Positions 1-59,106 of a stretch of 64,000 nt of DNA are shown here, in pieces. The notes beneath the pieces were generated by a model. The model made no database searches. It was not told the DNA's origin and worked only from the letters and a program-made list of their open reading frames with translations. The translations under genes were made by a program, and so were the position numbers. Within the stretch, counting starts at the first letter, position 1, and every line of letters begins with the position of its first letter. Source of the DNA: Eledone cirrhosa (taxonomy: Eukaryota); contig OZ024741.1 in assembly GCA_964016885.1 (NCBI GenBank), positions 311,922,001-311,986,000 of the forward strand. The letters run 5' to 3'.

Positions 1-207
1 GCTTGTTTGTTTATTTTATTTTGTCTTCTTTGCGCATGCGTTTGCGTGTGTGTATAGTGTTACGTTTGCTGTGTGATGGGTGACTAGTGTGTGTTTATGT
101 GCTTGTTGTTATTGTGCTTGTGTATGTATTTATTTATTTATCTTATTTTATATACTTATTTATACTTCTCTTAGGTCAGAGTTGTTTGTTTGGGTGTTGT
201 TGTTATT

Positions 208-1710
208 TCATTCATTCTTTCTGTTTAGCTTTGGTCTTCTAATTTCTATTTCACTGGCCTCTCTGATTTGCCTATCTGCTGGGTCATTTCTATGTTTAGA
301 TATTATTCTAATTTCTATGTTGTCTATGTTACCGTCATGTTGTTGTCTAGCATGTTCGTATAGTACTGACCCGTTTTTTCGTCCTTTTAGTTCCCCCCAG
401 TGTTGGTCTATCCTTTCACCTATGCTACGAGCTGTCTCACCTATGTATGTTGTTGTCATGTTTCTGCATGAACCCTCTGTACATCTTATGCTATAGACTA
501 CGTTTCTAGTTTTACAGTTTATCCGGGGGTTCACCTTACATATGATACATTTCCTATTGGTACAGTGGGTTTTCTTAAAAGGGTAGGTTTTGCTGATCAG
601 GGATTTTATGGTGGTTCCTGGCTTTTCTACCACCTTTATTTTTAAGTGGGTCTTTCTCAGGGCCTTTCTACACTGGTTAGCTAATTGCCCTCCAGGGGTG
701 GCGTCCACAAACATGACACTCTGGTATCTCTGGTTGTCGTACCATGAGGTGGCTTTCCCTATCTTATGTCTAGCCCTATCTAAGCTATTCCATGATTTGC
801 TCCTGTATAATGGGCACATTCCTTTCATGTCCAGTTCTATGAGGGTCTTATACTTTTCCATGGCTCCTTCGTATACTCTGACTCTGTCTCTTTGGTTGTA
901 GCCAGAGAACTGCATGCGGTTGATGAAGTGTTGGATGTATCTTTCCATTTCTGTTGGGTCGCACATACGGGACACATTCTTCATCACTCGTACCAAATCT
1001 GCGATCAGAATATTAAACTTAGCACTACTGGACATTGCTGAGATTTTGAGTATCAGGTATTTGGAGGCCATGGGTTTAGCATAGTGTGAGTGCAGAATTT
1101 GGGCTCTCTCGTCTATAGTGTTAATCCAGAGTTCTGTGTCTAATACAGGTAGTCTATTGTTAGGGTGTTTCGAAGGGAAGTCGATAGTTACAGTTATACT
1201 CTGGTGTATGGAATTAGCTATCTGCTGGATGATTTCCATCGTGCTACGTTCTAAATCAAACTTGTTAGTGCTCTCTAGTGGGGGTGTTCTTATAACTATA
1301 TTGATATCGTGTACATAACGAGAGTACATGATGAGGTCTATGGAGCTTTCATTAAGGAGATCTTTAAGTCTCCTTTCCCACCATACCATGAAAAGGTTGG
1401 CAACATCACCAGCTATGCTGACGCCGATGGCTGCTCCCTCATTTTGGGTGTAGATTTTCTCATTGAACTTAAATATGTGGCCCTTTAGGGTAGTTTTGAT
1501 ACTAGCCCCTATTGCATGTGCGACCATTTTTCTTACCTGATCATTGTTTTTGGGGGTCCGTATAGCTTTGGTCCACCCAATCCACCTTCCCATGGGAGTC
1601 TTTTTTGCCATTGAGTTTATGGTGGGGGGTCTACCTCTTATAGGTCTACTAAGGCAGAAACATCTAAGGTCATGGCTGTCTAGGTAGTCAGTGTCGTAGG
1701 TAAGTCTAAG
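208..1710 (-). mobile_element. Penelope-like element, 5'-truncated RT plus C-terminal GIY-YIG endonuclease (ORF 208..1611)
   Basis: RT motifs EGAAIGVSIAGDVANLFM, YSRYVHD (catalytic YVDD changed to YVHD) and LPVLD; Cys linker CTNRKCIIC; GIY-YIG VVYSIRC...YIGETAR...H...H...IRE. The 3' UTR runs off the window start. Confidence 0.9.
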
Positions 1711-2205
1711 TAGGAAGTGTGTGTGTATGTGTATATAATATCATCACACAAAACTAAACAACATGATCTATTAGTTAAGAATCGACAAGATATGGTTTAT
1801 AACTTGGTTATATGCTGAACCATGGTGGATTATATGATAGACCCGTGGTCTATATATATTGCGTCTCATGGATTATGTGAGTGGTGGTCTGCGCGAAGAC
1901 AGTGGTACTGTTTTGCCTAAGCTATATTATGTTTTATAATATGTTTGATATTTTTGATATTTTGGTGTTTCTCTACATTCGGGATTGTATATCATACAGG
2001 TGTATGCGAAAACATGACTTAACAATTCAGATCAAATAATAATATCGATTGCCTGCTTCAACTGCCTGACCCTGCAAGTAACAATCTGCCGCATTCTAAT
2101 CCTGTATAAATAAGACACGCGTGCATGCTACACGTGAGATTGTTTCATACACTGACTACTCTAAACTTTCCTCTTGCTTTATCTTCATAAACTGCCAATG
2201 CTTCA

Positions 2206-5884: not shown

Positions 5885-5988
<104 letters not shown>

Positions 5989-5989
5989 A

Positions 5990-6700
5990 AGTGGTACACA
6001 ACAGTTAGTTCACCAGACTGAGAATTGTTTCACCTTAGCGGATCTTCAGCTCGTAATGGACATGGTTATACGGAACAGAAAAGACAACCGTACGAACGCG
6101 CATGCGCAGAAACGGTCACTTCACTCAGGCAATACTAAATTGCGTGCGAGAGCTGTAAGGGAGATAACTGCGAAAGTCCGAAAGTTTCTAGTTGATAGGA
6201 AAATTAGGATGTTGTTGTAATTCAATCCGGAGATTTGTAGTTATGTAAGAGGTGTTTCCAGACGTGTGTACAACGTGTGAAGAATACATTTCTTGTGTTT
6301 CTGCAATCGCTATTGCGTAATCTCTTTAGAATATTTATTCGTTCATCAATGGCTTGAACCTTTCATTGAATGTAGTAGTCTATACTTGAGTCCTTGAGGG
6401 ACCACACGTGACTGGCGAGTTTTGTGAATGAACGTCAGTTCGGGTACCTAAAGGTCGACTGCTGGTTGAGGAAGCGTTCCTAAATCGGCCCTTCGCCATA
6501 CCCACATAGGATTTGACCTCCTGTTGTTGATTTGGTCGGTTGGAAGTGACCACAGTTTCGGGTAAATATTTCATTTATTTTGTTTGACCTGTTTAGCTTG
6601 CCTCGTCTTTTTGGCTTAGGTGGTTGATAGCTTCTTAACCGCCATCTCAATTTGTTTGCCCCTTATAACCTATGTTTACTGCTCTGGTCTCTTTTTGGTC
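5990..6700 (-). mobile_element. Decayed PLE 3' fragment (GIY-YIG remnant) with hammerhead at 6019-6053
   Basis: SYVGMAKGRFR GIY-YIG-like motif; minus strand cgag-CTGAAGA-T-CC gctaa GG-T-GAAA-caattc; same pLTR family as 56460-56612. Confidence 0.65.
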
Positions 6701-7289: not shown

Positions 7290-10200
7290 GATAATTTATT
7301 CAGATTGGCCGCGATAATGGAGACTGGTCGACTGTGCTACATAAGATTAAACCAGACAAAACTATGCTGCGACGATTACATTCACCTACGTGATGGAATG
7401 AACAATAATGAAAACAGATAACATTGGAAAGGTTTGCATTTTACCTTCAACCTTCGAAGGAAGTCCCCGTTGTGTGCATTCAAGAACCCAGGACGGGATG
7501 ACGTATGTGCGCGAGTACAGAAAACCAGACCTATTTATTACTTTTACATCCAATCCTTCGTGACAAGAAATTGCCCATGAACTCCTTCCAGGGCAACAGC
7601 CCAGCGGTCGCCATGACCTCCCATCCAGAGTCTTCGAGCTAAAAGTATACAAACTAATGGACCTTATCACAAAGGGCCAGGTATTTGGATGTGTGCAATG
7701 TTACATGTACACAATTGAATGGCAGAAGCGGGGACTCTCCCATGCTCACATTCTTTTTGGGTTGTCGACAAAAATCAGTGCAGACGACATCGACAAGATT
7801 ATATCCGCAGAGCTTCCAAACCCGCAAACTGACAAAATCCTATTTGACAGGGTTACGGCGCACATGGTTCACGGTCCTTTTGGAAGTTGCTTCAAATCTA
7901 ACTCCCCGTATTTGAACAACGGTATTTTCTCCAAAAAATACCCAAAAGCCTTCCTTCGCGAAACTCAAACTGCTGATGACGGATACCCATCATACAGACG
8001 AAGAAGCCCTGAGGACGGAGGATTAACAGCACTGGTTGGAAAACATGTAATTGACAACCGATGGATTGTACCGTCCTGCCCATTACTACTCAAGGTGTTC
8101 AACTCCCACATAAATGTGGAAAGGTGCAACTCTATTAAATCAATCAAATATGTCTGCAAGTATATAAATAAGGGCCCGAATGCCGTCATGCTCGGGCTTA
8201 AAGAAAAAACAACCGGGAGGAAGTTGCACAGTACCAATCAGCACGAAATATAATTACCAGCGAGGCCTTTTGGTGAATTTACCGTTTCTCAATGCACAGA
8301 AGATACCGTGCCCTCCAACACCTTGCTGTGCACCTGAAAAACGGCCAAAGCGTGTACTATACAAGACAAACAGCTTTTCTGAGGGCTCTGCAACCAAGGA
8401 ACACAACTCTTACTGCATTCTTTCAACTATATCAAGGCGGCGCATTCGCTCGCACTTTGCTGTATCTCCCAAGTCCCCTCTTTCTACAAATGGGAAAAGT
8501 ATTCATGGAAGCCAAGAATCAAGGGTGAAAGCGTTGATGGTCATCCAGATTTTAACTTTGATAGCTACGTAGCGCGAGTTTACACAGTGCCCCCCATCTA
8601 CCAAGAATGTTACTACCTGCGTATTCTTCTCAATGTCGTAAGAGGACCAACCAGTTTTCAACACGTAAGAACTGTTGATGGCCAAATTGGCGACACGTAC
8701 AGAGAGACCTGCCTCAGGCGTGGACTACTGGAAGATGGTCCTCAGTGGGATGGCACTTTGGCAGAAGCAGTTGTTTCACAACTGCCACACAGCCTTAGGA
8801 AGCTTTTTGCTGTCTTACTGTACATTTGTTAATTGCCCGGTCCTTCCTTCTTGTGGCTTAAGTACAGACATGACCTGTCTGAGGACTTCAGCCATCAAGC
8901 ACAATTACAACTTCCTGACATGGAAGTAGGCTTCACAGATGAAATCTACAACAAAGCACTTATTAAAATTGAAAATATGATTGCTGCCATGGGTGGGAAT
9001 GCTCTGCAGACATATGGCCTGCCCCAAACCAACAGAACAGGCTCCGACGTCATTTCCGCAGAAATACTTCGGGAACTATCCTACGACACTGACAGCTTGG
9101 CTACATATGTCACTGAATATGAACCAAATGCTGCTGCAGGAACAGGAACGAGCATATAACAATATTGCTGACTGTGTCCACCTTCGTACGGGAGGAATCT
9201 TTTTCTTGGACGCCCCTGGAGGCACATGGAAGACTTTTGTCATACGGCTTCTCCTTGCCAAGGTTCGACAACACAGACACATAGCACTTACTGTTGTGTC
9301 TTCCGGTATTGCAGCAACCTTGCCTCCTGGGGGAAGGACAGCACATTCAACCTTCAAACTCACCCTCAATATGACAGCAAATGACACACCCTGCTGTAAT
9401 ATTACCAATGGATCAGAAAAGGCAGAACTGCTTAAAAGGTGTGAACTTATAGTTTGGAACGAATGTACCATGCCTCATAAAGGAGATTTGGAGGCACTGG
9501 ACCGGGCTTTAAGAGAAATAAGAGACTCCCAGGATCCCATGGTATGCGTCCTTTTATCCGGAGATTTTAGACAAACCCTCCCTGTTATTCCTAAAGGAAC
9601 AAGGGCTGATGCTATTTGAGCATGCTTAAAGTCATGTCAGCTTTGGCGTTATGTCACAACATTAACGCTCTCTACGAACATGAGAGCTCGGATGCTTGGT
9701 GACCAAGTGTCATCAGATTTTGCTACCAGCCTATTTACACTTGGGAACGGTAAAGTGCCACTTGATGAAGATGAAAAAATCTCCCTCGAACAGGTCTGCA
9801 CTTTAGTCGACAGTGCTGACAACTTGACAGATGCAGTATTCCCTGAGTTGAGCCCTAACTACCAATATCCAAACTGGCTGTGCGAAGGGCAATACTGGCT
9901 CCGGAAAATGAGACTGTCGACAACATCAACAGACAACTGCTTAAGTCTCTTCCTACAGCTTCGTGTACATACAAGTCTATCGATACAGTCACAGAACCTA
10001 TTAACTACCCAATTGAGTTTCTTAATCTATTGCACCCCTCTGGGTTGCCATCTCATCGATTGGAACTTGAGCAAAGATGCCCAATTATGCTTTTGAGGAA
10101 TCTACACCCTCCAAAACTCTGCAACAGCACCTGCCTTACGATAAAGAAACTAACGCAAAACTTGATCGAGGCGACAATTCTCTCGGGGTGTGGAAAGGGG

Positions 10201-10480
10201 AAAAGTATTTTTATCCCAAGGATTCCCCTGTGTCCGTCAACATCAGAGATCCTCTTTTCATTTAGGAGGCTCCATTTTCCAGTTCGTTGTAGTTTCGCTA
10301 TGACGAAAAATAAGTCTCAGGGGTAAACATTGTCCGCCGTGGGAATAAACCTAGTAGAGCCATGCTTTTCGCACAGTCAGCTATACGTTGGATGTTCACG
10401 AGTAGGAAGCAAAAGAAACCTTTATGCATTTGCTCCAAACGGTAAAACTACAAACATTGTGTACCAAGAAGTTCTGTAAT
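7290..10480 (+). mobile_element. Helitron RepHel pseudogene (HUH Rep plus Pif1-family helicase), frameshifted
   Basis: ILPSTFEGSPR, EWQKRGLSHAH (HUH), KYVCKYINKG (Y2), DAPGGTWKT (Walker A), SSGIAATL, GGRTAHS, SGDFRQTLPV, FAMTKNKSQG; many stops and frameshifts. Confidence 0.93.
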
Positions 10481-15693: not shown

Positions 15694-16484
<791 letters not shown>

Positions 16485-16854: not shown

Positions 16855-17552
16855 GGATTAACAAATAATAGTTAAATGCAGTCCACTTAGGTGAAGTCCA
16901 GTTATGGTATTCCAGGTAGTGGATGATATTAACGCTTGGCTTGGTTTGACTCAACAAGGCGTTTTCATAGTGATGCTGCGGGTATGCTGTAATTCCTATG
17001 TTGTAAACACTTGGAGTAATAATAAATCAGGAAAGAAGGTTTACATGGTTTGCTATACAAAAAAGTTTTTAATCACATAGCTTACATTTGTTTCACTGAA
17101 CTGGTATGTCTAGAGATCGCTATCCGCCTAATTTTGCGTCACTCGATCGCCAATACAGAATTATAACCAGTCAGATCTTCGGAGCATGCGAGAATGAAGA
17201 AAATACACAGGCAAGAAAATAAAAGAAAATATGGAGTAGTTATGGCATTCAATTAGAACAATAACAACAACAATTATTACAACAATGCTATCAATAAACT
17301 ATTTAAGGAGACCCTGACATTACTTAGGTGGGGGGTATATAGTGTATCTAATGTTACGGCATGAAAACCAGCTGTCATAAGGCAAAAAGTATCGTAGTGT
17401 GTATCAATTTTAAATTATAAAGATAAGCTAGTTTTTACAGTCTTTCTCTTCATCTTCAACCGTATACATGAGTGGGACCACTGTCAAAGCTCAATAGTTG
17501 TAGAGTTAATACAGAGGTTAACGAATTAATATACGCATATATCTACGCACGC

Positions 17553-17649
<97 letters not shown>

Positions 17650-18178
17650 AGTATAAATACATATACACATATATGTGTACATAGACACATACATACACAT
17701 TAATATACACTCGTACAAAAATATACATACATGCAAAGAGAAAAGCGTGCTAATTGTAATATGGCAAAAAGAAGGTAAAGTAACATTGTAGTAGTGAAAT
17801 GAGAAAAACTAGGATCTAGGATCAAATGATTGCAGCAGCTGAGAAGGAGTAAGATTGTTGGTAGATGAGGTATTTACAGACTATTGTGTGGTATAGACTT
17901 GTGAAGGAAATAGTATACTTAATGAATATATATTTTTTGTGGGTAGTAGGTATCCTAATTTAAAACTATGTTATGTTGGTTCGATTCACGGAGGTTTGAA
18001 TCTTATGAATTTAGTGGCTATTCTATGTCTGCAGAAGATAGATCTTTCTAACTTATTATTAAGTAGCCTTTTAACATTTCTAAGGATATACAATAGCTCA
18101 AGATCACACAGCCCGCAATAGGACATACCTGTACTATAGGTTTTAGCAGCCGACAACTTCGACCAGATTACAGATATC

Positions 18179-19573
18179 GTGGGGCTATTCATAGCACACA
18201 ACCTACATAAGGAATTCAGTAACCTCCAAGGAGGAATTTATAGGGACGACACGTTACTTATAGCTAGGAACCTAAACAACCAGAGCATGGAAAGACTAAG
18301 GAAAAATATTAGAATATTCTTCAAAAAACTAGGCCTAAGTATTACCTACGAACTAAACCATAAGAAGGTAAATTTTCTAGATGTAACTCTAAATCTAAAT
18401 ACTGGATTAATAGAACCTTTCCACAAAAATAATGAAAATCTTGCCTACATTAGTTACAACTCAAATCACCCCAAATCCATAATTAAATCCATAGCACGGA
18501 GTATATCCCTCCGAATATCCCGCCTATCCTCAAACCTAGAAATCTTTAACGAGCATGCTGACTATTATAATGCAGCATTAAGTAGGGCCGGTCATAAAGA
18601 TAAACTACAGTATATAGTGAATAAGGACAACATAAACAATCCTAGTAATTTCTACTCCAACCGCTCACATAATAATAGGAATAGCTTGACTAGACATAGG
18701 GTTAGACATGTAACACCTAGAGTAAACGGCCAAAACACTAATAACGTAAACCCTAGAAACAATAGAAGAAACAGACAAAGAAAATACCTATGGTTCAACC
18801 CAATATTCAACTCCTCTATAAAAACTAGACTGCCCTCTATATTCTTTAAACTAATAGATAAACACTTCCCTATCTCGCATAGATATCACAAACTACTCAA
18901 TAGATCTACTATAAAACTCTCTTTTTCAACAGCAGCCAACATAGAATCACACATACGCAAGATCAACCGCAGAAATATCTCAAGTAAATCAATTGCACCT
19001 ATACATAAGCACAAACTCATCACAACGTCACAACCACAAGCGCATACAAACGCGCAGCAGCAAAACCCCATTGGGCACATATCACAACCCACTTATAACA
19101 GGGTACTAAATAGGAATGTAAAAGCTGCACATAATAGCGCCTCAAACTGCAACTGTCACCTCCCAGATAGGTGCCCATTGGCGAATAGATGTCTCGATTC
19201 GAGCCTGGTGTACATGTGCACTGTCATCTCGGGTAACTCCACTTGGAATTACATAGGATCCACCGCGGGTTCTTTTAAGAAAAGATGGTATGTGCACAGG
19301 CACTCGATGAAAAACCGAGCTCTTATGGGTTCCACCACCCTCGCCAGGAAAATATGGGAATTAAAGGACAGCAACGCTAGCTACACTATCAACTGGTCGA
19401 AGTTGTCGGCTGCTAAAACCTATAGTACAGGTATGTCCTATTGCGGGCTGTGTGATCTTGAGCTATTGTATATCCTTAGAAATGTTAAAAGGCTACTTAA
19501 TAATAAGTTAGAAAGATCTATCTTCTGCAGACATAGAATAGCCACTAAATTCATAAGATTCAAACCTCCGTGA
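18179..19573 (+). CDS. PLE RT C-terminal half plus GIY-YIG endonuclease (5'-truncated, uninterrupted, 464 aa)
   Basis: GIYRDD, VNFLDVTLNL, SNHP, WFNP, CNCx5Cx5C linker, LVYMC...YIGSTAGSFKKRW, CGLC, CRH. Confidence 0.88.
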   Translation: MGLFIAHNLHKEFSNLQGGIYRDDTLLIARNLNNQSMERLRKNIRIFFKKLGLSITYELNHKKVNFLDVTLNLNTGLIEPFHKNNENLAYISYNSNHPKSIIKSIARSISLRISRLSSNLEIFNEHADYYNAALSRAGHKDKLQYIVNKDNINNPSNFYSNRSHNNRNSLTRHRVRHVTPRVNGQNTNNVNPRNNRRNRQRKYLWFNPIFNSSIKTRLPSIFFKLIDKHFPISHRYHKLLNRSTIKLSFSTAANIESHIRKINRRNISSKSIAPIHKHKLITTSQPQAHTNAQQQNPIGHISQPTYNRVLNRNVKAAHNSASNCNCHLPDRCPLANRCLDSSLVYMCTVISGNSTWNYIGSTAGSFKKRWYVHRHSMKNRALMGSTTLARKIWELKDSNASYTINWSKLSAAKTYSTGMSYCGLCDLELLYILRNVKRLLNNKLERSIFCRHRIATKFIRFKPP

Positions 19574-19909
19574 ATCGAACCAACATAACATAGTTTTAAA
19601 TTAGGATACCTACTACCCACAAAAAATATATATTCATTAAGTATACTATTTCCTTCACAAGTCTATACCACACAATAGTCTGTAAATACCTCATCTACCA
19701 ACAATCTTACTCCTTCTCAGCTGCTGCAATCATTTGATCCTAGATCCTAGTTTTTCTCATTTCACTACTACAATGTTACTTTACCTTCTTTTTGCCATAT
19801 TACAATTAGCACGCTTTTCTCTTTGCATGTATGTATATTTTTGTACGAGTGTATATTAATGTGTATGTATGTGTCTATGTACACATATATGTGTATATGT
19901 ATTTATACT

Positions 19910-20010
<101 letters not shown>

Positions 20011-20374
20011 GCGTGCGTAGATATATGCGTATATTAATTCGTTAACCTCTGTATTAACTCTACAACTATTGAGCTTTGACAGTGGTCCCACTCATGTATA
20101 CGGTTGAAGATGAAGAGAAAGACTGTAAAAACTAGCTTATCTTTATAATTTAAAATTGATACACACTACGATACTTTTTGCCTTATGACAGCTGGTTTTC
20201 ACGCCGTAACATTAGATACACTATATACCCCCCACCTAAGTAATGTCAGGGTCTCCTTAAATAGTTTATTGATAGCATTGTTGTAATAATTGTTGTTGTT
20301 ATTGTTCTAATTGAATGCCATAACTACTCCATATTTTCTTTTATTTTCTTGCCTGTGTATTTTCTTCATTCTCG

Positions 20375-20487
20375 CATGCTCCGAAGATCTGACTGGTTAT
20401 AATTCTGTATTGGCGATCGAGTGACGCAAAATTAGGCGGATAGCGATCTCTAGACATACCAGTTCAGTGAAACAAATGTAAGCTATG
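20375..20487 (+). ncRNA. Hammerhead motif with ~80-nt extended stem II (inverted copy at 17076-17188)
   Basis: catGCT-CCGAAGA-T-CTGACTGGT...ACCAGTTCAG-T-GAAA-CAAATG-TA^AGCtatg. Confidence 0.65.
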
Positions 20488-20535
20488 TGATTAAAAACTT
20501 TTTTGTATAGCAAACCATGTAAACCTTCTTTCCTG

Positions 20536-20580
<45 letters not shown>

Positions 20581-24954: not shown

Positions 24955-25636
24955 TAGTAGTAAAGTGTTCGTTGTTGTGATAATGGTTAGCAGGTATGTG
25001 TGTGCGAACAGCAGTCTGTTGGCAGTTAAAATGCCTATTAAGATAAGTGTGTGTGTATAGCAGAGTAATTCGTGGTATAGGGATGGTTAGTAGTAATGTG
25101 TCTGTAAGTGAGTGAGGGATATTTTAACATGTTAAAATATATTTTTCAGCTCTTGACTTATACGGAGAAGTGTGTGTGTGTGTGTGTAGCAGAGTAATTC
25201 GTGGTAGAGTGATGGTCAGTAGGAATGTGTCTGTAAGTGAGTAGGGGATATTTTAACATGTTCCACTTTGGAAAACGAAACATACTACGAAAAGGCTGAA
25301 CACTACAATCAACAGAAAATTATGAGAAACCTAAACACTCTAATCAACCAATAGAAAGAAGGACTCACTAAGAAGGAATTCAGCTTCATCACAGACTTCA
25401 GAAGTAAATCCAGCCTTTTCTACGGTATCCCTAAAGTACATAAAAGCGAATTAATAAGTAAGGCATGCAAGGAAGCCACAGACATAGTCATCAATGTCCC
25501 CTCACCCAATCATCTCAAATTAAGACCTATAATAGCAGGCCCCGCTTGCGAAACCCACCGCTTTAGCAACTTCATTGATACCCTTCTCAAGCCCTTTCTC
25601 AAACACATCAAAAGCTATATAAGGGACGACCTAGAT

Positions 25637-27075
25637 ATGCTCAATCACATCCCTAATATGCCACTTTCTGAACAAACCCTACTAGTGACGTTCGATGTAG
25701 TCAACCTATACTCCAACATCCCCCACAACCTAGGAATAGAAGCTATCCAATTCTGGCTGGATAATTACCACAATGAACTCCCACAACGCATCAAAATAGA
25801 ATTCGTGATAGAGGGACTCAAATTTATCTTGGAGAACAATTACTTCGTTTTCAATAACAAACCCTACAGGCAGAAATCTGGGACCGCTATGGGAACGAAA
25901 ACAACCCCCACTTATGCCAACCTAGTCATGGGATACATGGAAATCACCCTCTTCACTAAAGTCCTAAACAAATTTGGAAACACTCTCCACTTACACATAG
26001 AAAGAAACTGGAAGAGATATCTAGATGACTGCTTCATCCTTTGGCACGAAAACATAGAAAAACTTAAAGAATTTCACACCCTTATAAATGAGCTCAACAC
26101 GAATATTAACTTCACGATGGAATACAGCCATCAACAACTCCCCTTCTTCGACATCCTCATTAAGATCCATAACAAAAAAATAGAAACAGACATATACTAC
26201 AAGCCCACAGACTCAGGGAAATATCTTCCTTTCAACTCTTGCCACCCTAGACACGTTAAAATTAATATTCCCTACAACTTAGCCAAGAGAATCTGTACTA
26301 TAGTCTCCAATAAAAACACCTGCTACTTACGGCTACAAGAACTAAAGGACACACTGATAGGCAGGGACTACCCTGCATCACTAATTGACAATGTAATCCA
26401 ACGTGCCCTAAAACTCAGTACCCAGGACCTTAGACACTCTAAAGTAAATCAACCGAAACTAAAAGCTCTTCCATACATCTCCACACACAACCCCCTCAAC
26501 AATGAGGCCTTTGACACCATCCTCCAGAACATCCCTGTGTTGAAAAAGGACCATAGAATGAACCAAATCCTACGAACACACGATATCATAAGAGCAAAAG
26601 ACAATCTAAGTCAATGAAAAACATCCTAACACATGCCAAAGTACTGCCAACCACAACAACGAAACCCACATTCAAAAAATGCGATAGACCCAACTGTGGC
26701 ATTTGCATCAACCTAATAGAGGGTTCAGAATTCTATTTCAAAGGACAACGTTTTATAGTAAAACACAATTTCACATGTGCATCGGAAAATGTAATATATA
26801 TATTAACTTGCTCAGGTTGTCGAGAACAATACATAGGCCAGACCAAAAACAGCCTTCGCCAACGCATGACCGTCCATAGATCCCAAATTAAAATACGGGA
26901 ATACAGGAAAATACCACTGAGTGAACACATTGATACCTGTGCTGCCCCAAATCATCCCAACTTCAGAATCTTTCCCCTCTACAAATTTAAAGATAATGCC
27001 ACCCACACGCAGCGCATCAGCAAGGAATCTTACTTTATTAACAAATACGGACCTCCTCTAAACACTTCTCCCTAA
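25637..27075 (+). pseudogene. PLE RT plus GIY-YIG split into ORFs 25637-26617 and 26614-27075
   Basis: Contiguous PLE protein motifs across a single frameshift. Confidence 0.88.
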
Positions 27076-33079: not shown

Positions 33080-33332
33080 CCCCGGGTTCAATCGGGGGAA
33101 ACCACAGTAAATAAGGTAGTGAATACATAGTAAAGTATAAATATTTAATATAGAAATGGCTTCTACAGTACTTGAACAATTTCATTCGGGAGAAATCAGC
33201 AGGAATCCTCTGATGATTTCTCCCCAATGAAACAGTTCAAATCCTGCAGAAGACATTCTATTTTAAATATTTATACGTTGCTATGTATTGACTACCTTAC
33301 TTACTCTCGCTACCCCCGATAGAACCCGGGCT
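33080..33332. mobile_element. ORF-less pLTR palindrome with two divergent hammerhead motifs at its centre
   Basis: Arms 33080-33204 / 33206-33330; plus strand CTGATGA-T-TT ctcccc AA-T-GAAA-cagttc (33210-33238) and minus strand CTGCTGA-T-TTC tccc GAA-T-GAAA. Confidence 0.75.
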
Positions 33333-38172: not shown

Positions 38173-41100
38173 CTAGCTGACGTACCCAGCTTCGCCCGGG
38201 TAAACAGATGATAAGAGAAGACAGGTAAAAGAGAAAATGACTGTATTGGATGTTTGTCTGGTTACAGTATGAGGCGAGTCCGTGGTGTCTGTATGATACA
38301 AAATCTTTTTTTTTAAATCTTCCAGTTATACCAGATTCTTCGTTGTACCGTTTGTGCATAGTATATGATCAATTCTAGGTGCTCCCACCTAGAATAGTGA
38401 CCTCCAAGGGATGGTTCATATTCTGCCTGACTGTAAAACGTGTATCATTGCATAGACGTGGTTGTTCCACGTTTCTCAAAAGGATGATGGAAGTTCCAAT
38501 ATTTTATATTATATGTAGATATAGATATAGATAATTAATAGAAAAGATGTCCGTCAATGTAAAAAAGGTCCCTATTTACTTGAAATGGTTTATACAAATG
38601 CCAAATTAATATGGATATGGATAACATGCTTTTCTATAAGTGGTCAGCTACAAAAATAAAACAACAAATTATAAGACAAAAATTTATTCAGTAATTTCCA
38701 GGCTCTTAGCCACTGAGTAATAGACTGTCAATATTGCCCAGAATTCAACTCGGGGAGGTGGCCTGGTTTGAACTCCAAATGGCGAATCCTTCTACTTCGA
38801 AAATAGAATCGTTTTTCAATATTACTCTAGCCCTGGCCGGCCATAGGATCCAACCTTTTTGCCCGACTCAGCATGTGAAGAGGTTTTATTATAACCGCAA
38901 TCAGAATCGATACATTTGAAGGCAATTTTGACCAATACTTGTTGGTTTTTATTGCTCATTATCGACAATAAATGATATTGAACAGAAATGATAACTCTGT
39001 CAAAGCTCAGAATACTGATCAATGGACATCAATGTCTGAATCATTTACGTCGAATATTCAGAGTAGTGAAGGCAATTTCTACCAATACTTGTTGGTATTT
39101 ATTGCGCAACATAGCCGTGAAATCAATCTTTAGCAATACTTGTTTGTTTTTATTGCTCATAACAACATTAAATGACATTGAACTTAAATGAAAACTCTGT
39201 CAAAGCTCACAAGACTGATCAAAGGACACCAATGTCCGAATCATTTACGTCGCTTATTGATAGCATTAAAGATATGCAAAAATCAGCTCAAAGCTTCATT
39301 ATAGACAATATTCAGGGTTGTTCTTCTGTTAGTGTATCAATTGCAAATGTTATACCATCAGGATCGCACACTCGAGATGCAGCAACATACAGTTTCCCAT
39401 AGCTGAATGCTGGACCATTCAAATAGACACCGACTCGCTTGAAAGTCTGTCCCTGTGACTTGTTGACAGTCATGGAGAAGGCCAAATTGACGGGAAACTG
39501 TCACCTTTGCTAAATGAATGGCAGCAAATCTTCTCTTGGTCTCAGCATGATCCTCGGAATAAGAAATCGATTCCTCTCTGCCTAGGAGTGTAGCTTCTAA
39601 ATCACTCCCGTTAACCAGTCTCTCAACTATCAATCTGGTACCATTGCAAAGACCCATTTTATGATTGATATTTCTAAGCAATATAATCGGCATACCCTTT
39701 TTCAACCTCAAAATATGTGGGGGAAATCCGGGTATTTGAAGTGAATTCAGATACTCAGTCGGAACATCCATATTGTTCTGCTGATTAGGCTCCATTGCAT
39801 CTGCACTGACGGTCAACTATTCCTCTCCGGGAAACATTCCGGCTACTTGTGAATTTATTTCATCGACCGTTGCATTCGTATGAGTTAGAATAACGCGTTC
39901 CGATATCCAGGAGATATTCTGCCGAAAAGCATTCAATTTATGGAACACCCAGTCAATCAATGCTTGACGGTCCAGTGGGATGACCAAATAGTCTGGGATT
40001 GTTATAGTCTGATTATCACCAATGTGAAGCAATTAATCGTTTCCCAACTGCATCAACCATCGGCCATATATCTCAGCCTCTTCGTTTTGCCCGAACATAT
40101 GAAGTCGCATATCATCGTGTAATCGCAAAACTCTGAATTGGCGCCACAAAAGGGACATTTTCAGACATGGATCGACAATTTGCGCCCTTTGAGCATTCCT
40201 AACAATTGGTAGCACCTATCTGAAATCACCACCAAGAACGATAGTCTTACCACCTAATGGCAGGTCACTACGGCAGATATCTCTCAAAGTTCTGTCAAAT
40301 GCCACCAGCAAATATCTGTGTGCCATTGGAGCCTTGTCCCAAACAATCAGAGACGTATTGCGTATAAGGCCCGCGAGTTCAGTTTGTCCTGTAATGTTAC
40401 AGACACTCAACTCATCCGGAGTCAATAGAGACTTGAAGCATGAGTGGCAGGCCCTTCCACCACTCAACAAAGTGGCAGCGATCCCACTGGTGGCCACAGG
40501 GAGAGCAATCTTCCTCTGAGCTCTGACTGCCAATAACATAGTGTTGAAACAGAATGTCTTTCCGGTGCCTCCTTGAACATCTAGGAAAGCATAAAGATGC
40601 TCATTAGTGGAAGCGAGTGGAGAACGCCATCGACCAATTCTCTCTGAGATTGGGTCAACATTGTCATACGTTCATCCACAATACGTTGCTGTTCTAGTGG
40701 ATCAAACTGGAATAGTTCCCTCCGATCGAGTGGCAACCGTCTAAGCTGCGATCTCATGTTCAATACTAAGACACGTTGCCGCATTTCTTCATCAGGAATT
40801 GGCAAATTCAAATCTGTTAAACATTTGAAATTAACTTCAAGCAGTTGCTCAATATTAAGCAAAACAATAGCTTTCATCAAATTTTCATCATCTACCTGAA
40901 GAATTATGCCTAAAATCATCAGCCATAATTCCACAATGGCGTTCAAATAACTCACTTGGACCTGCAGGATTGCAGAACCCTAGAATCGTGACAAACAACT
41001 GCCTTATTTGAGCTGGCATCTGTGTTGTTCCTGCAGCTTCCATGGCGTTATTCCATTCAGCGTATTCCTGAAGGAGTCCCAGATGCTGACACACAGCCTG

Positions 41101-43420
41101 GTATGTTTCATATTCCACTCCATTGATTGTTTTCAGATCAGCGAAGCTCTGTTTATCTCTCGAAAAATCATTATGCAACAGAATTAGGAGATAAAACACA
41201 TCACCAGATGCTGGATGGACATTACAAGCCCGTTCAATAGTCATGAATCTCAGCTTTTGTTTTCTATCATTCCATTTCTTTCCCTTCTTATCCCACATAT
41301 AGTGCAAAGGGAACTCGCAGTAGAGTTGCCTTTTATCCTGGTTCAAAGCATGTTGCCTATTATGCTTGAACCACTCAGTCAATTCCGTCTTAGGAGGTGG
41401 TGCGTTAGTAATTCTTTCAACACATCTGTTAGTCTCCGGAAAACATACCATTTGCCTATTTTCTAAGTGAACCGTCAGTTTCTGAACGCTGGGTTTGCGT
41501 TCATACATCTCAGGCCGCCGATGAACGACGATGGCAAAATAATGCGTCGTCCAATTTGCTTGTAATTGGCATCATCAGCTGTTAACACATCCTGTATATT
41601 AGTATGCAAATCAGCACTGATATGTTGCTGATGTGCAGCTATATAATTAAGCCTTTGATTTTCGATCTTTGCGAATACCATACACCAGTATTCCTGGAAC
41701 AATCTGCTGGCTTGAAATAGTGCATTTCTCTGTTGATTCCTCTCGTTCAAATGGAACGCGTAAAAGTCGTGAATCGAATTATTGTGTCTATTGCCGCCTC
41801 CCTGTTAAAGCTGATTCTTATGATCATCTAAATAAACAGACATGTTCCATCCATTTTCACCTTTTGGGAATAAAAGAACATAATACAATGGATAGTCTTA
41901 AGACATAATACAGTGATAGTCTTGAGACCACAATCACTGCGATTGAAGACGATATTGATTCCTTGGCACTACGTCAGCCTTAATTACCAATGTTAGCTGC
42001 TGAAGATTTTGCAGTTCAGCCACCAACATGAAATCCATAACATAAGGATTACACTGTCTAAGCAATGATCGAAAAATCACGGGTCAAATCATTTAACCTT
42101 TGCCGTTCAAGTTCAGTTATAATTCACAGCAACTTCATCCAACCGATCCTGATATCCTCCTCCGATTCACTATAATCTGGATCGTTAACGTAAATTTGAG
42201 CGAATCGAGGCCTCTCTCCTGGAGTAACTTCTAAATTACCGATACAATGATACAAACGGTCTTGAATGATTACATTCGGTTGCCATGCTCCACTGTCAAA
42301 CATCTCACTAACTCTCTGCGATGCTAAAGCTAATGAATTGTTAATTTGCCGCGAATATTTGCGCAATAATCTACCTCGGTCTCCTTGTCCACCCCACATA
42401 CTTAGTATTTTAAACTCCGGTGACTCCTCATCATCCAGCATTCGCAAGGGTTCTAGTTGAACTGCTCCTTTATGACCCCACATTGTGGTCCACGTCTTTT
42501 CGTGCCTCCAAATCAATGCTCCACAATGTGGACACCTTGCTCGTCCACCAATCTGAAAATGACACGGTTGCCATGATCCATTTTTAATATCATTCGTTCG
42601 CCTTCTAGCCTCTTTACTGGAATGAGGAGCACATTGGCGACACATTCTCTGAACTTCTGTATTGCGCTGGCGTTGATCAGCCAGATCCTCTTCATCAATC
42701 GCAGCACTCCGTTGCTGCTGAATTCCGGCCTTTTGCTGATGATGCTCAGCTAGTTCGTCTTCAACCATCGCAGCACGCCGTCGCTGCTTGGTTCCAGTGT
42801 TTCGTTGGCGTTGTTCAGCCAGTACGTCTTCATGACGGCGGCACCACTCCGCCTCCGAAGTTCGGCGTCCCGATGGCGCTGTTCGGCCCGTTTTTCTTCA
42901 TTCCTGGCTTCAAGCCGTCGCCGCTGTGGTTCACTGTTTGATAATGTCAAATTGTTTTTATTATCAGTATTCATTTCGAGCAATTGTCAAAATATGGCAC
43001 AATAATAAATATGAAAGATGTCCGTCAATGTAAAAAAAGGTCCCTATTTACTCCCTTGACAACTCTGTGTATGTTAGACGGACAGACAGGCACACAGACA
43101 CATACAAATAAACTGCGTGGCGATTGTGGAACGCCACACATATACACGCATGGAAACGCGCACACGCACGCAAACTTACACATGTTAATAGTTATTGCTT
43201 TCCTTCCGTTCTTATTTCCAGACACATCACACACATACATCTCTCTACACATATACATAGTGTATCCAACACAGCGTTCACACTCTACCCTCTCACTCCC
43301 TCATTGGCTTTATGCATATTAATTTCAGCTTGGTGTTGTTGAAGTGGGCGGAATCATTTGAAACCTATGAACTAATGACAATCGAGAATTATGACACACG
43401 GAATACTGACATTGTTCATA

Positions 43421-43481: not shown

Positions 43482-43582
43482 TAGAACTATTTCATTCAAA
43501 TGAAATCATCAGGAAAGCCATTTCCAGATGATCTCTTTGGATGAAACCTTTCCAGTCCTGTAGGAGCGGTTTCTATATTAAA
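43482..43582. ncRNA. Tiny inverted pair of hammerhead motifs (5752/33210 family)
   Basis: Minus strand CTGATGA-T-TTC attt GAA-T-GAAA (43490-43512); plus strand CAGATGA-tctctttggat-GAAA-cctttc-cagtcctgtag (43525-43563). Confidence 0.6.
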
Positions 43583-47254: not shown

Positions 47255-50200
47255 TCTAAACTATAATAAAGTAAGTCTGCGGAACTGCGTACGGTTTATT
47301 TCTTATAATTCTGTTAGTAAAATAAGTTAGATTACTTTGAATAAATAATTAATGAACATTACATAATTTATGTTATAAAAACACAAATAATTTAAAATTG
47401 ACTCCTTTTCAAATGTTCATTCACATTTCTACACTTCCTGTATAGTGTCAACACCACCACCCACTTCAGCTACCATATATATTGAAAGAGAGAGTGTGTG
47501 ATGAGAGAGATAGAGAGATTATGATTTTCTACACGCTGACGCGTATGAGTGTGCACATACATACTTCTATATGTATGAGTATATAACTATTATGAGTATA
47601 TAATTATAATCGAGCAAACAAAAAATACACGCTCACATACATTCACACAAATACACATACTTTCACACAAACATACATACATTCACACATATACATTTAC
47701 AAAAACACACACATACAATCATGATAACAGCGTTCGGTGAATTGTAAATGGGAGGGTAAAACAAGTATAACGATTTATTTATTCATTAAAACTCATATCT
47801 ATTTATTAATTTCAAGAACGTCAGTATTCCGTGTGTTATAATTCTTGATTATCATTGGTTCACAGGTTTCAAACGACTCAGCCCACCTCAACGACGCTAA
47901 ACTGAAATTAATATGCATAATGCCAATGTGGGAGTGAGAGGGGATGGTCTGAACTATTAACATGTGTGCATGTATATGTACGTTCGCGTATTTTATGTGT
48001 GTTTGCGTGCGTACAGCATTCCACAGAAAGTAAAAACTATCGACATGTGTAAATGTGTGCGTGTGTTAGTTTGCGTGCGTGTGCGCGTTTCCATGCGTGT
48101 ATGTGTGTGGCGTTCCACAATCGCCACGCAGTTTATCTGTCTGTGTGCCGGTCTGTCAGTCTAACATACACAGAGCTGTGAGAGGAGTAAATAGGGACCC
48201 TTCTTTACATTGCCGGACATCTTTTATATATATGATCGTGTCATTTTTGGACAATTGCTCGAAATGAATACTGATATTACAAGCAATTCGACTTTATCAA
48301 ACAGTGACCTACGGCGGCGACGGCGTGCAGCCAGGAATGAAGAAAAACGGGCCGAACAGCGCCATCGGAACGCCGAACTTCAGGGCGAAGAGGTGCCGCC
48401 ATGAGTGAAGACGAACTGGCTGAACAACTCCAACGAAACACTGGAGCCAAGCAGCGACGGCGTGCTGCGAGGGCTGAAAACGAAGTGGCTGAGCATCATC
48501 AGCAGATTGCGAGAATTCAGCAGCAACGGCGTGCTGCGATGGATGGAGTGGAGCTGGCCGAAGCGCGCCAGCGAAATACAGAAGTTCAGAGAATGTGTTG
48601 CCAAAGTGCTCCTCATTCCAGTAAAGAGGCTAGAAGGCGAACGAATGATATTAAAAATGGATCATGGCAACCGTGTCATTTTCAGATTGGTGGACGAGCA
48701 GAGTGTCCACATTGTGGAGCATTGATTTGGAGGCACGAAAAGACGTGGACCACAATGTGCTGTGATAAAGGAGCAGTTCAACTAGAACCCTTGCGAATGC
48801 CGGATGATGAGGAGTCACCGGAGTTTAAAATACTAAGTATGTATGGTGATCAAGGAGACCGAGGTAGATTACTGCGCAAATATTCGCGGCGAATTAACAA
48901 TTCATTAGCTTTAGCATCGCAGAGAGTTAGTGAGATGTTTGACAGTGGAGCATGGCAACCGAATGTAGTCATTCAAGGCCGTTTGTATCATTTTATCGGT
49001 AATTTAGAAGTTACTCCAGGAGAGAGGCCTCGATTCGCTCAAATTTACGTTAACGATCCTGATTATAGTGAATCGGAGGAGGATATCAGGATCGGTTGGA
49101 TGAAGTTGCCTGGAAATATAACTGAACTGGAACGGCAAAGATTAAGTGATTTGATCAGTGATTTGCTATCATGGTTTAGGCAGTGTAATCCTTATATTAC
49201 GGATTTAATGTTTGTGGCTGAACTGCAAAATGTTCAGCAGCAAACATTGGTGACTAAGGCTGACGCAGTGCCAAGGAATCAAAACGAACGTTGATATAAT
49301 GCCCCTGAAGGATTTCGTGAAGTTGCAGTGATGATGGACGATAAGCCTGGATCAAGAGATATCGTCCTCAGTCGCAGAGATGGTGGTCTCAAGACTATCA
49401 ATGAGTTAAATGCGGCATACGATCCATTGCATTATCTTCTTTTATTCCCCAAAGGTGAAAATGGATGGACCATGTCTCTTCATTTAAATGATCATGAGAA
49501 TCAGCATCAACAGGAAGGTGGCAATAGACACAATAATTCGATATAATCCATATTCGATTATAAAATATCGTTGTCATATTAATGTGGACATTTGTAGTTG
49601 TAGCTCAGTGAAAGCTTGCAAATATCTATTCAAATATGTTTACAAAGGGCATGATCGGGCAATAATCAATGTCAGGTATGAGGAAGCGAACCAAGGATAT
49701 GAAGTTGGCAGGTTCCAGGTTGTTCGCTCGATTTGATCTAGCGAAGCTTGCTGGAGATTGTTCGATTTTGATCTCAATGAACGCAAACCCAACAATCAGA
49801 AACTGACGGTTCACTTAGAGAATAGACAAATGGTCTGATTTCAGGACACTAGAAGAGGTATCGAAAGAATTGGTAACGCACCACCTCCTAGGACCGAATT
49901 GACTGAGTGGTTCAAGCATAATAGGGAACATGCTTTGAACCCGGTTTCAAAGGCAACTCTACTGCGATTTCCCTTTGCACTATACGTTGGATAAAAAGGG
50001 AAAGAAATGGAATGATAGAAAACAAAAGTTGAGATTCATGACTATTGGACGGGTTTGTAATGTTCATCCAGCATCTGGTGATGTGTTTTATCTCCGAATT
50101 CTGTTGCATAATGATTTTTCGAGAGGTAAACAGAGCTTCGCTTATTTGAAAACAATCAATGGCGTGGAATATGAAACATACCAAGCTGTGTGTTAGCATC

Positions 50201-55696: not shown

Positions 55697-56463
55697 TTAT
55701 TTAGGTTTGTTGGTTTACCACTGGATAGAACTGGTCATTCCGTATGGTCAACCTCGATGTAATATTATGGAAAGCACTCAACGTAATGCAACTCACCCGC
55801 CTTCCTTTGTGTAGTATATAGTGCGAGTACGGAGTTAATTATTATAAAATAACAGGAGGATAGACTGGTGTACTTCCTTGAAAGGTTTATTATACTATGA
55901 TCGTTTGAATGACCGGGTTCAGTATGAATCCGATGACATCATCAGGTATTTGAAATATAACAAAGGAATATAATAGACAAAATCCATGTGGCTGAAAGTC
56001 AGAGACATGAGGGCACACTAACATTTAGCATCTTCTACCCCGCTGTTCGTTGTTTTGTATATCAATATTCAAAACAAGATATTCAAAACAACGAACAGCG
56101 GAGGACACGTTTCGCACCTTTCCGACAGATAACCTCCCCCCACCCCGGAAAAAAACCCCAGTTGATGGATGTGAATCCGAAATATATAGGGATAATTAAA
56201 TCTCTCCCAAGGTAACACTATCTCGTGTTATTTTTATTTTTTTCGCTCTTTCCTACGTCCTTCTACACACTATACATCTCATTCTACATTTACTTACATC
56301 TCTCTCTTCACCACCGGATCTTGTTACACGGAGAATTACCCATCTGCATTGTTGAGGCTTCCAAACCGACCTAAGGAAAATATATTTATATATATATATA
56401 TATAGTGGTATTTATCCGTAGTGGTAGAGCACTCAGTCCATGGGACGAGTTAGGTAGAACTTG

Positions 56464-56610
56464 TTACACAACAGTTAGTTCACCATACCGAGAACAATTG
56501 TTTCACCTTGGCGGATCCTCAGTCGTAATGTATAATCATGTCCATTACGAGCTGAGGATCCACTAAGGTGAAACATTTGTTCTCGGTATGGTGAAATAAC
56601 AGTTGTGTAA
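56464..56610. ncRNA. Divergent inverted pair of hammerhead motifs (56489-56525 minus, 56548-56585 plus) between (TA)n tracts
   Basis: CGAG-CTGAGGA-T-CC actaa GG-T-GAAA-CATTTG-TT^CTCG with a perfect stem I; the mirror copy has loop CAATTG. Confidence 0.8.
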
Positions 56611-56612
56611 CC

Positions 56613-56673
<61 letters not shown>

Positions 56674-58871: not shown

Positions 58872-58887
58872 GATATATATATATATA

Positions 58888-59106
58888 TAGGAAAAAGTAT
58901 GACCCCTACGGAAGAGCTCAAGCCGTTTCGACCGCTATTTCTGGAATAAATTAGAACAAAATTCTAATTTAGTCCAGAAATAGCCGTCGAAACGCCCTGA
59001 GCTCTGCCGTCGAGGTCATACTCTTTCCTATTTCCCACTCTACTACCCTAAGTATTGAGTACTCTAGTGCGTTATGGTCCATCTGGTTCCTTACCACAAT
59101 TCTTTT

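What the first reader, a model, noticed from the sequence alone, without database searches (positions are those of the whole stretch)
56464..56610. ORF-less mini-palindrome made of two divergent hammerheads
Seen: a ~150-bp palindrome between (TA)n tracts whose arms are only the HHR plus a short pLTR tail; the plus copy has a perfect stem I (CGAG/CTCG) and a GUU site. The same architecture recurs in other families (33080-33332, 43482-43582, 15892-16408). Inference: either extreme truncation products of PLE fold-back integration, or a class of non-autonomous, retrozyme-like hairpin elements that put a ribozyme on both strands. The retrozymes I know of have HHRs in direct tandem, not inverted.
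Basis: partly seen in the sequence, partly recalled or inferred. Interest (0 to 1): 0.75.

Follow-up and report, generated by a model that had tools for sequence, protein, structure and literature searches.

The report
Head-to-head Penelope retrotransposon stub
This palindrome is two short pieces of a common jumping gene (a Penelope-like retrotransposon) joined head to head in a TA repeat, one of many such stubs with different joints, likely made in one insertion event and predicted to keep both ribozyme motifs folded shut, so it is a known kind of insertion rather than a new self-copying RNA.

Summary
The palindrome and both hammerhead (HHR) cores are real, but the element is 56405-56616 and asymmetric: the left arm carries a ~70-nt tail. 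It is a 5'-truncated head-to-head insertion of a Hydra-type Penelope-like element (2.6-kb unit; 5,351 exact core hits). Its junction occurs once in the genome. In a position-sampled set, 50 of 89 insertions are head-to-head, 42 of 50 pair a short with a long 3' end, and centres differ. The most repeated centre I followed (8 copies) has the tail on either side, so it recurs by convergence. Each strand has one HHR, buried in a hairpin by ~65 kcal/mol: not a retrozyme. Opposite-strand HHR pairs in truncated PLEs are in print (PMC4209133). By-product: 95 of 130 arms end within 65 nt upstream of the HHR's GAAA box, and an extra G marks one end site (138/312 vs 17/100 control), consistent with two-strand priming and run-off at a capped RNA start. 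No RNA data. The scan noted the same in other families of this genome.

The parts
56405..56530 (-). Left arm: PLE pLTR fragment from family position -27 to +119 (0 = G of the GAAAC box); includes the tail, with a 14-nt internal deletion
   Evidence: alignment to a natural copy; family ends at +50 and +119
56405..56453 (-). Tail (family +50 to +119), present on this arm only; in full-length copies it runs on into the ORF
56489..56525 (-). Minus-strand minimal type I hammerhead motif (core at 56522; predicted cut between 56493 and 56492); stem I broken by a 1-nt deletion
56530..56530 (.). Junction: one base (G) shared by both arms; this junction occurs once in the genome
56530..56616 (+). Right arm: pLTR fragment from family position -40 to about +50 (short end, no tail)
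56548..56585 (+). Plus-strand minimal type I hammerhead motif: stem I 56548-56551/56582-56585, core 56552-56558 and 56570-56573, predicted GUU cut after 56581
56380..56404 (.). (TA)n target tract, left
56616..56668 (.). (TA)n target tract, right
5985..6700 (-). Second, single-armed copy of the same family in the window; short (+50-type) end and a longer 5' part (far boundary approximate)

Best explanation
The palindrome is two short pieces of the hammerhead-bearing end repeat of a Penelope-like retrotransposon joined head to head in a TA repeat, likely written in one insertion event in which both ends of a DNA cut primed reverse transcription, and it is likely a dead-end copy. Shown: parent element, arm anatomy, paired +50/+119 ends, unique junctions, pile-up of 5' ends. 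Inferred steps: the element's endonuclease cuts (TA)n on both strands; one end primes at the +119 start site and the other at the +50 start site of the same RNA or of RNAs from one source locus; both cDNAs stop just upstream of the hammerhead, likely because many templates begin there (capped start near -26/-32); the two cDNA ends are joined with 0-6 nt of microhomology or a short filler. Any transcript across it is predicted to form a ~70-bp hairpin that buries the single hammerhead on that strand.
For: Parent: L105 holds HHR-tail-ORF-pLTR-HHR in a 2,600-nt unit with an inverted tail piece at its head; natural frames carry RWR, DKT, YRDD, CxCx5C, CxxC-E and N..CxH, matching the Hydra description (PMC8557442 section 11). 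Position-sampled set (99 of the first 100 exact hits; one duplicated locus dropped): 50 of 89 insertions head-to-head, 42 of 50 short+long (p 1e-6 against 0.5). Two RT start sites defining the tail, with both strands cut and extended, are shown in vitro for another PLE (PMC11167929). Junction single-copy; 297 exact mini-palindromes, first 50 listed nearly all different; 21 distinct centres in 22 best matches, the repeat being one tandem duplication. Arms of a pair share variants (32 vs null mean 5.3, max 14 of 2,000; 71 pooled pairs) and have correlated 5' ends (median difference 13 vs 32 nt; both beyond -100 in 7 pairs). 95 of 130 arms end in (-65,0], 7 in (-130,-65]; unconditioned tail-primed partner arms: 4 of 24 end before 0, 16 of the remaining 20 within the next 65 nt. 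Non-native base before A(-26) is G in 138 of 312 vs 17 of the first 100 of 143 at the next position (hand count; p 5e-7). Untemplated 5' G is read as cap copying in LINE-1/SVA (PMC4859970 passages); D. virilis Penelope starts transcription in its pLTR 46 nt before an intron that ends at the HHR (PMC2377424 and PMC4209133 passages). HHR fold costs 68 and 64 kcal/mol against the hairpin.
Against: No RNA evidence for a start site. 5' ends spread over ~60 nt, not one base. Of 30 G-junction loci checked, the G is explained by the partner arm in 11 and by a plain substitution in 2; 17 are unexplained; the control position excludes A rather than C, so the two counts are not a perfect match. ORF-bearing copies rarely end in the same zone (3 of 23; p 7e-8), so a simple 'all RNAs start here' model fails and full-length copies need another template (these 30 loci are the best matches to one subfamily). 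Shared variants between arms could come from later arm-to-arm conversion, and part of them are subfamily markers. Pfam found no RT or GIY-YIG hit in the L105 frames; no phylogeny against named Hydra proteins was built. The in vitro data are from a Poseidon-clade element with a 30-40-nt tail, against ~70 nt here.
Confidence: 0.8

Rival explanations
1. Same PLE origin, but the arms stop at an RT barrier (HHR helix or nearby structure) or are trimmed during repair, not at the RNA start.
For: 5' ends are spread over -5 to -60, some at local palindromes such as -14 and -20; no RNA start was measured.
Against: Only 3 of 23 ORF-bearing copies stop there; excess G at -27 and G in 3 of 3 arms starting at -32 is not expected from a barrier.
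Confidence: 0.3
2. Snap-back/self-priming: one cDNA (or an antisense template, as proposed in PMC3846280) folds on itself and the second arm is a copy of the first.
For: Shared variants and correlated ends between arms; some perfectly palindromic centres; tail arm reaches further in 25 of 43 pairs, equal in 7.
Against: The tail-less arm reaches further in 11 of 43 pairs, and some pairs barely overlap (L096 -16..50 with 50..119; L105), which copying of one arm cannot give; both outer ends sit at fixed family positions.
Confidence: 0.12
3. A non-autonomous hairpin retrozyme that moves as a unit and uses a ribozyme on each strand.
For: About a fifth of sampled insertions (18 of 89) have this compact form; one centre recurs 8 times; both HHRs look intact in 17 of 71 pooled pairs.
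Against: This junction is single-copy; the recurring centre has mixed tail polarity and locus-private variants in both arms; one HHR per strand cannot release a monomer; the antisense arm is transcribed first and pairs with the core (unpaired probability 0.0); this copy's minus HHR is broken.
Confidence: 0.03

Closest known systems
EN+ Penelope-like element insertions with an inverted 5'-truncated copy and one-sided tail (PMC8557442 passages and Fig. 2 legend; PMC3846280 passages)
   Same: Head-to-head inverted pLTR pieces, tail on one end only, microsatellite target, HHR in the pLTR.
   Different: Here both halves are cut down to 80-150 nt with no ORF; tail ~70 nt rather than 30-40; this stub form is about a fifth of sampled insertions.
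Hydra clade of PLEs (PMC8557442 section 11)
   Same: Unit under 3 kb, single ORF, DKT, CxCx5C linker, CxxC and CxH around E and N, (TA)n target, HHR.
   Different: RWR instead of RWK; placement not tested by tree.
Dual minimal HHRs on opposite strands, 100-700 bp apart, in Schistosoma PLE remnants (PMC4209133, Results read)
   Same: Two minimal HHRs close together on opposite strands, ascribed to truncated PLEs; short helix I; palindromic loop 3 in most copies.
   Different: Cores here are only ~30 bp apart; helix II is 2 bp over U-U instead of 7-8 bp with G10.1-C11.1.
Animal non-LTR retrozymes (PMC7229834 passages; bioRxiv 10.64898/2026.07.22.740005 abstract, introduction, part of methods)
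   Same: Non-coding, type I HHR, PLE-derived.
   Different: Retrozymes are direct tandem repeats with at least two HHRs on one strand giving circular RNA; this has one HHR per strand and no shared unit.
LINE-1 twin priming (PMC4859970 passage; original paper not read)
   Same: Two primers at one insertion site give an inversion.
   Different: LINE-1 inverts without duplicating (recalled); here the two arms overlap, from two fixed start sites.

Membership tests
EN+ PLE insertion | Sequence is the pLTR of an element with an RT + C-terminal GIY-YIG-type ORF | tested here: met
   L105, L230: YRDD RT motif and YVG..R..E endonuclease motif by inspection; 499 homologues at E<=1e-20. Pfam gave no RT/GIY-YIG hit.
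EN+ PLE insertion | Inverted 5'-truncated copy at the 5' end | tested here: met
   50 of 89 sampled insertions
EN+ PLE insertion | Tail on one end only | tested here: met
   42 of 50 pairs +50/+119; window copy
Hydra clade | Unit <3 kb, DKT, RWK, CxCx5C linker, no CCHH, CxxC/CxH at E and N | tested here: met
   2,600 nt; DKT; RWR (variant of RWK); CSCRKPEAC; CGLCIDE; N..CPH. Absence of CCHH judged by eye.
Hydra clade | (TA)n target | tested here: met
   (a minority now abut (CT)n or other repeats)
Hydra clade | Groups with named Hydra RTs in a tree | not tested
   No reference Hydra sequences fetched
Minimal type I HHR of PLEs | Core boxes, helix I 4-5 bp, helix III with NUH | tested here: met
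   Plus copy yes; minus copy lacks stem I
Minimal type I HHR of PLEs | Stable helix II with G10.1-C11.1 | tested here: not met
   2 bp over U-U; a U-U base is described for a weak axolotl HHR (PMC7229834 passage)
Minimal type I HHR of PLEs | Self-cleavage | not testable with these tools
   Needs an assay
Non-LTR retrozyme | Two or more HHRs in direct tandem on one strand | tested here: not met
   One per strand
Non-LTR retrozyme | Propagates as a defined unit | tested here: not met
Non-LTR retrozyme | Monomeric linear/circular RNA | not testable with these tools
   No RNA run listed

The most novel reading that the evidence does not exclude
These stubs are run-off copies of the capped 5' leader of the PLE mRNA: because PLE reverse transcription starts internally near the RNA's 5' end, two RTs primed on the two ends of one cut copy only ~80-150 nt, read the cap as an extra G and are joined. 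That would explain the head-to-head inversions and one-sided tail of PLEs, turn palindrome centres into a genomic map of PLE start sites, and imply that full-length copies need a different (read-through or circular) template.
Probability: 0.55. Interest if true: 0.55.

Novelty: new member of a known kind. Interest (0 to 1): 0.3.

Why it matters
As an object it is ordinary transposon debris, and it warns that opposite-strand hammerhead pairs in invertebrate genomes are usually PLE insertions. The family statistics matter more: how PLEs make inverted ends and tails is called unresolved in PMC8557442, and the fixed +50/+119 pairing, the end pile-up and the extra G give a cheap, testable model. 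Roughly 1,000 such hairpins in this genome (extrapolated from 18 of 89 and 5,351 hits) could also be a source of double-stranded RNA; that is untested.

Tried and rejected
Rfam scan: no hammerhead family hit, only microsatellite-driven miRNA noise. The repeat finder was swamped by (TA)n. RNA: no RNA holder listed; laying four contig sets of unknown type gave family-wide pile-ups and nothing locus-specific; neither is evidence on expression. HHR cleavage as the source of the 5' ends: rejected, only 1 of 50 partner arms starts within +8..+16 of the cut at +12. Exact-extension mapping of 5' ends has an artefact peak at -6 from a subfamily indel, so only its -26/-32 rows were used; gapped alignments were used for distributions. 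The centre-counting pattern was mis-spaced and was redone, whose position-sampled list includes a few chance matches. The 30 best BLAST loci are size-biased and were not used for frequencies. L066 was dropped as a duplicate of L065, L042 of L041. PMC1142468 (LINE-1 5' junctions) is not held, so cap-G rests on a review passage. Literature searches for a two-primer model in PLEs: 'Penelope + twin priming + inverted' (2 papers, listing only, neither on PLE mechanism by title) and 'Penelope-like/pLTR/head-to-head/mechanism' showed none; subscription papers and supplements were not seen, including the Hydra sequences in the supplement of PMC8557442. Look-up of earlier findings by sequence gave nothing.

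Full report
Observation. The window holds an inverted repeat at 56455-56619 (84% over 166 nt) that folds far better than shuffles (z -15.1). Both arms carry an exact CTGAGGA...GAAA hammerhead core facing outwards (56552 +, 56522 -). The element is larger than reported: the left arm continues through a tail to the TA tract at 56405. With 0 set at the G of GAAAC, the left arm covers -27 to +119 (14-nt deletion) and the right arm -40 to about +50, sharing one G at 56530.

Family. A 31-nt core occurs 5,351 times in the 3.0-Gb genome. Locus L105 shows the parent: inverted tail piece, HHR, tail, ORF, pLTR, HHR, (TA)n, in a 2,600-nt unit. Natural frames carry RWR, DKT, YRDD, CxCx5C, CxxC-E and N..CxH, the marks listed for the Hydra clade of Penelope-like elements (PMC8557442 section 11). 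Pfam did not recognise the L105 frames, and no tree was built, so the clade call rests on motifs, size and target.

Does it move as a unit? The window's junction occurs once. An exact two-anchor pattern finds 297 mini-palindromes; the 50 listed differ in nearly all centres, with a few repeated two or three times. The 22 distinct best-matching loci give 21 centres, the repeat being a local tandem duplication. I sampled 99 of the first 100 core hits by position and dropped one duplicated locus: 50 of 89 insertions have a head-to-head partner, 18 of 89 are compact double-HHR stubs with 17 distinct junctions, and 42 of 50 pairs join a +50 end with a +119 end. The centre repeated most often has 8 copies genome-wide; the tail lies left in 4, right in 3, unclear in 1, and four of them carry private variants in both arms. 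Recurrence is therefore convergent.

Could it work as a ribozyme RNA? Each strand has one HHR, preceded by its own antisense. The core is fully paired in the ensemble and forcing the HHR fold costs 68 (plus) and 64 (minus) kcal/mol. Retrozymes need two HHRs in direct tandem (PMC7229834 passages; bioRxiv 10.64898/2026.07.22.740005 first part). Minimal PLE HHRs cleave poorly even as dimers (PMC4209133). No RNA run was listed, so expression is untested.

Mechanism. For an Anolis PLE, both target strands are cut and extended and RT starts at two internal sites that bound the tail, with uncleaved RNA as the main template (PMC11167929 main text). The paired +50/+119 ends here fit that directly. Snap-back of one cDNA is disfavoured because the tail-less arm reaches further in 11 of 43 pairs and some pairs hardly overlap. 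The two arms seem to share a template: shared variants 32 vs 5.3 expected and correlated ends, though arm-to-arm conversion could add to the first. 5' ends pile up just upstream of the HHR whatever the priming site: 95 of 130 arms end in (-65,0] and 7 in the next 65 nt; tail-primed partner arms, which were not selected on the core, cross 100 nt with 4 of 24 stops and then stop in 16 of 20 cases. Only 1 of 50 partners starts at the HHR cut. Where an arm starts at A(-26), the foreign base before it is G in 138 of 312 against 17 of 100 listed at the next position (counted by hand; p 5e-7); 17 of 30 checked G junctions are explained neither by the partner arm nor by substitution. Such a G is read as cap copying in LINE-1 and SVA (PMC4859970 passages), and Penelope's start site lies in its pLTR shortly before the HHR (PMC2377424, PMC4209133 passages). 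The window's left arm ends at this site (-27). Against a simple model: ORF-bearing copies end in this zone in only 3 of 23 cases, so they need longer or circular templates, or belong to a subfamily that behaves differently.

Comparison with what is known. Inverted 5'-truncated copies with a one-sided tail are standard for PLEs (PMC8557442; PMC3846280), and dual minimal HHRs on opposite strands 100-700 bp apart were reported and ascribed to truncated PLEs in 2014 (PMC4209133). I found no paper in the held library giving a two-primer, start-site run-off model for PLEs, but earlier unreviewed notes of this scan reached it for other families of this genome. My two-end priming reading was on record before that look-up; the idea of looking for a cap mark came after reading note e1-9550100, and I then tested it here.

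Verdict. Real feature, known kind: a likely dead head-to-head stub of a Hydra-type PLE. The hairpin-retrozyme reading has about 3% left. The interest lies in the family statistics as a handle on PLE insertion, which needs RNA 5'-end data. Interest 0.3.

Noticed in passing
window 17022-20541 (ORF 18140-19573 +): Large inverted repeat (676-nt arms, 96%) around a PLE ORF fragment 29% identical to this family's protein; another Hydra-like family.
   Followed up: partly
window 58887-59031: 145-bp palindrome (86%) next to (TA)n with an unpaired extension on the right; no HHR core within one mismatch. Probably the same insertion type from another family.
   Followed up: partly
window 5757 (+), 33210 (+), 43512 (-): Related CTGATGA-type HHR cores of a second PLE family group; 5757 has a 6-bp stem I.
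   Followed up: partly
window 25355-27075 (+) and 208-1740 (-): Further PLE ORF pieces; 25355-27075 hits Pfam RVT_1 (below cut-off) and GIY-YIG.
   Followed up: partly
window 7564-10326, 39358-41571, 42124-42897, 48341-49294: ORF pieces that look like Helitron Rep/helicase by eye (recalled motifs, not searched).
   Followed up: no
L177-L206: Upstream pLTRs of ORF-bearing copies have widely spread 5' ends (-600 to +88), unlike the stubs; fits a circular or read-through template.
   Followed up: partly
G000:C3:56662527-56662571: Palindrome in which both arms start at A(-26) with an extra G, separated by a short filler.
   Followed up: no
window 56200-56400: Left flank is itself a repeat (89% to L079 over 200 nt; high contig depth), so the stub sits at the edge of another element.
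   Followed up: no
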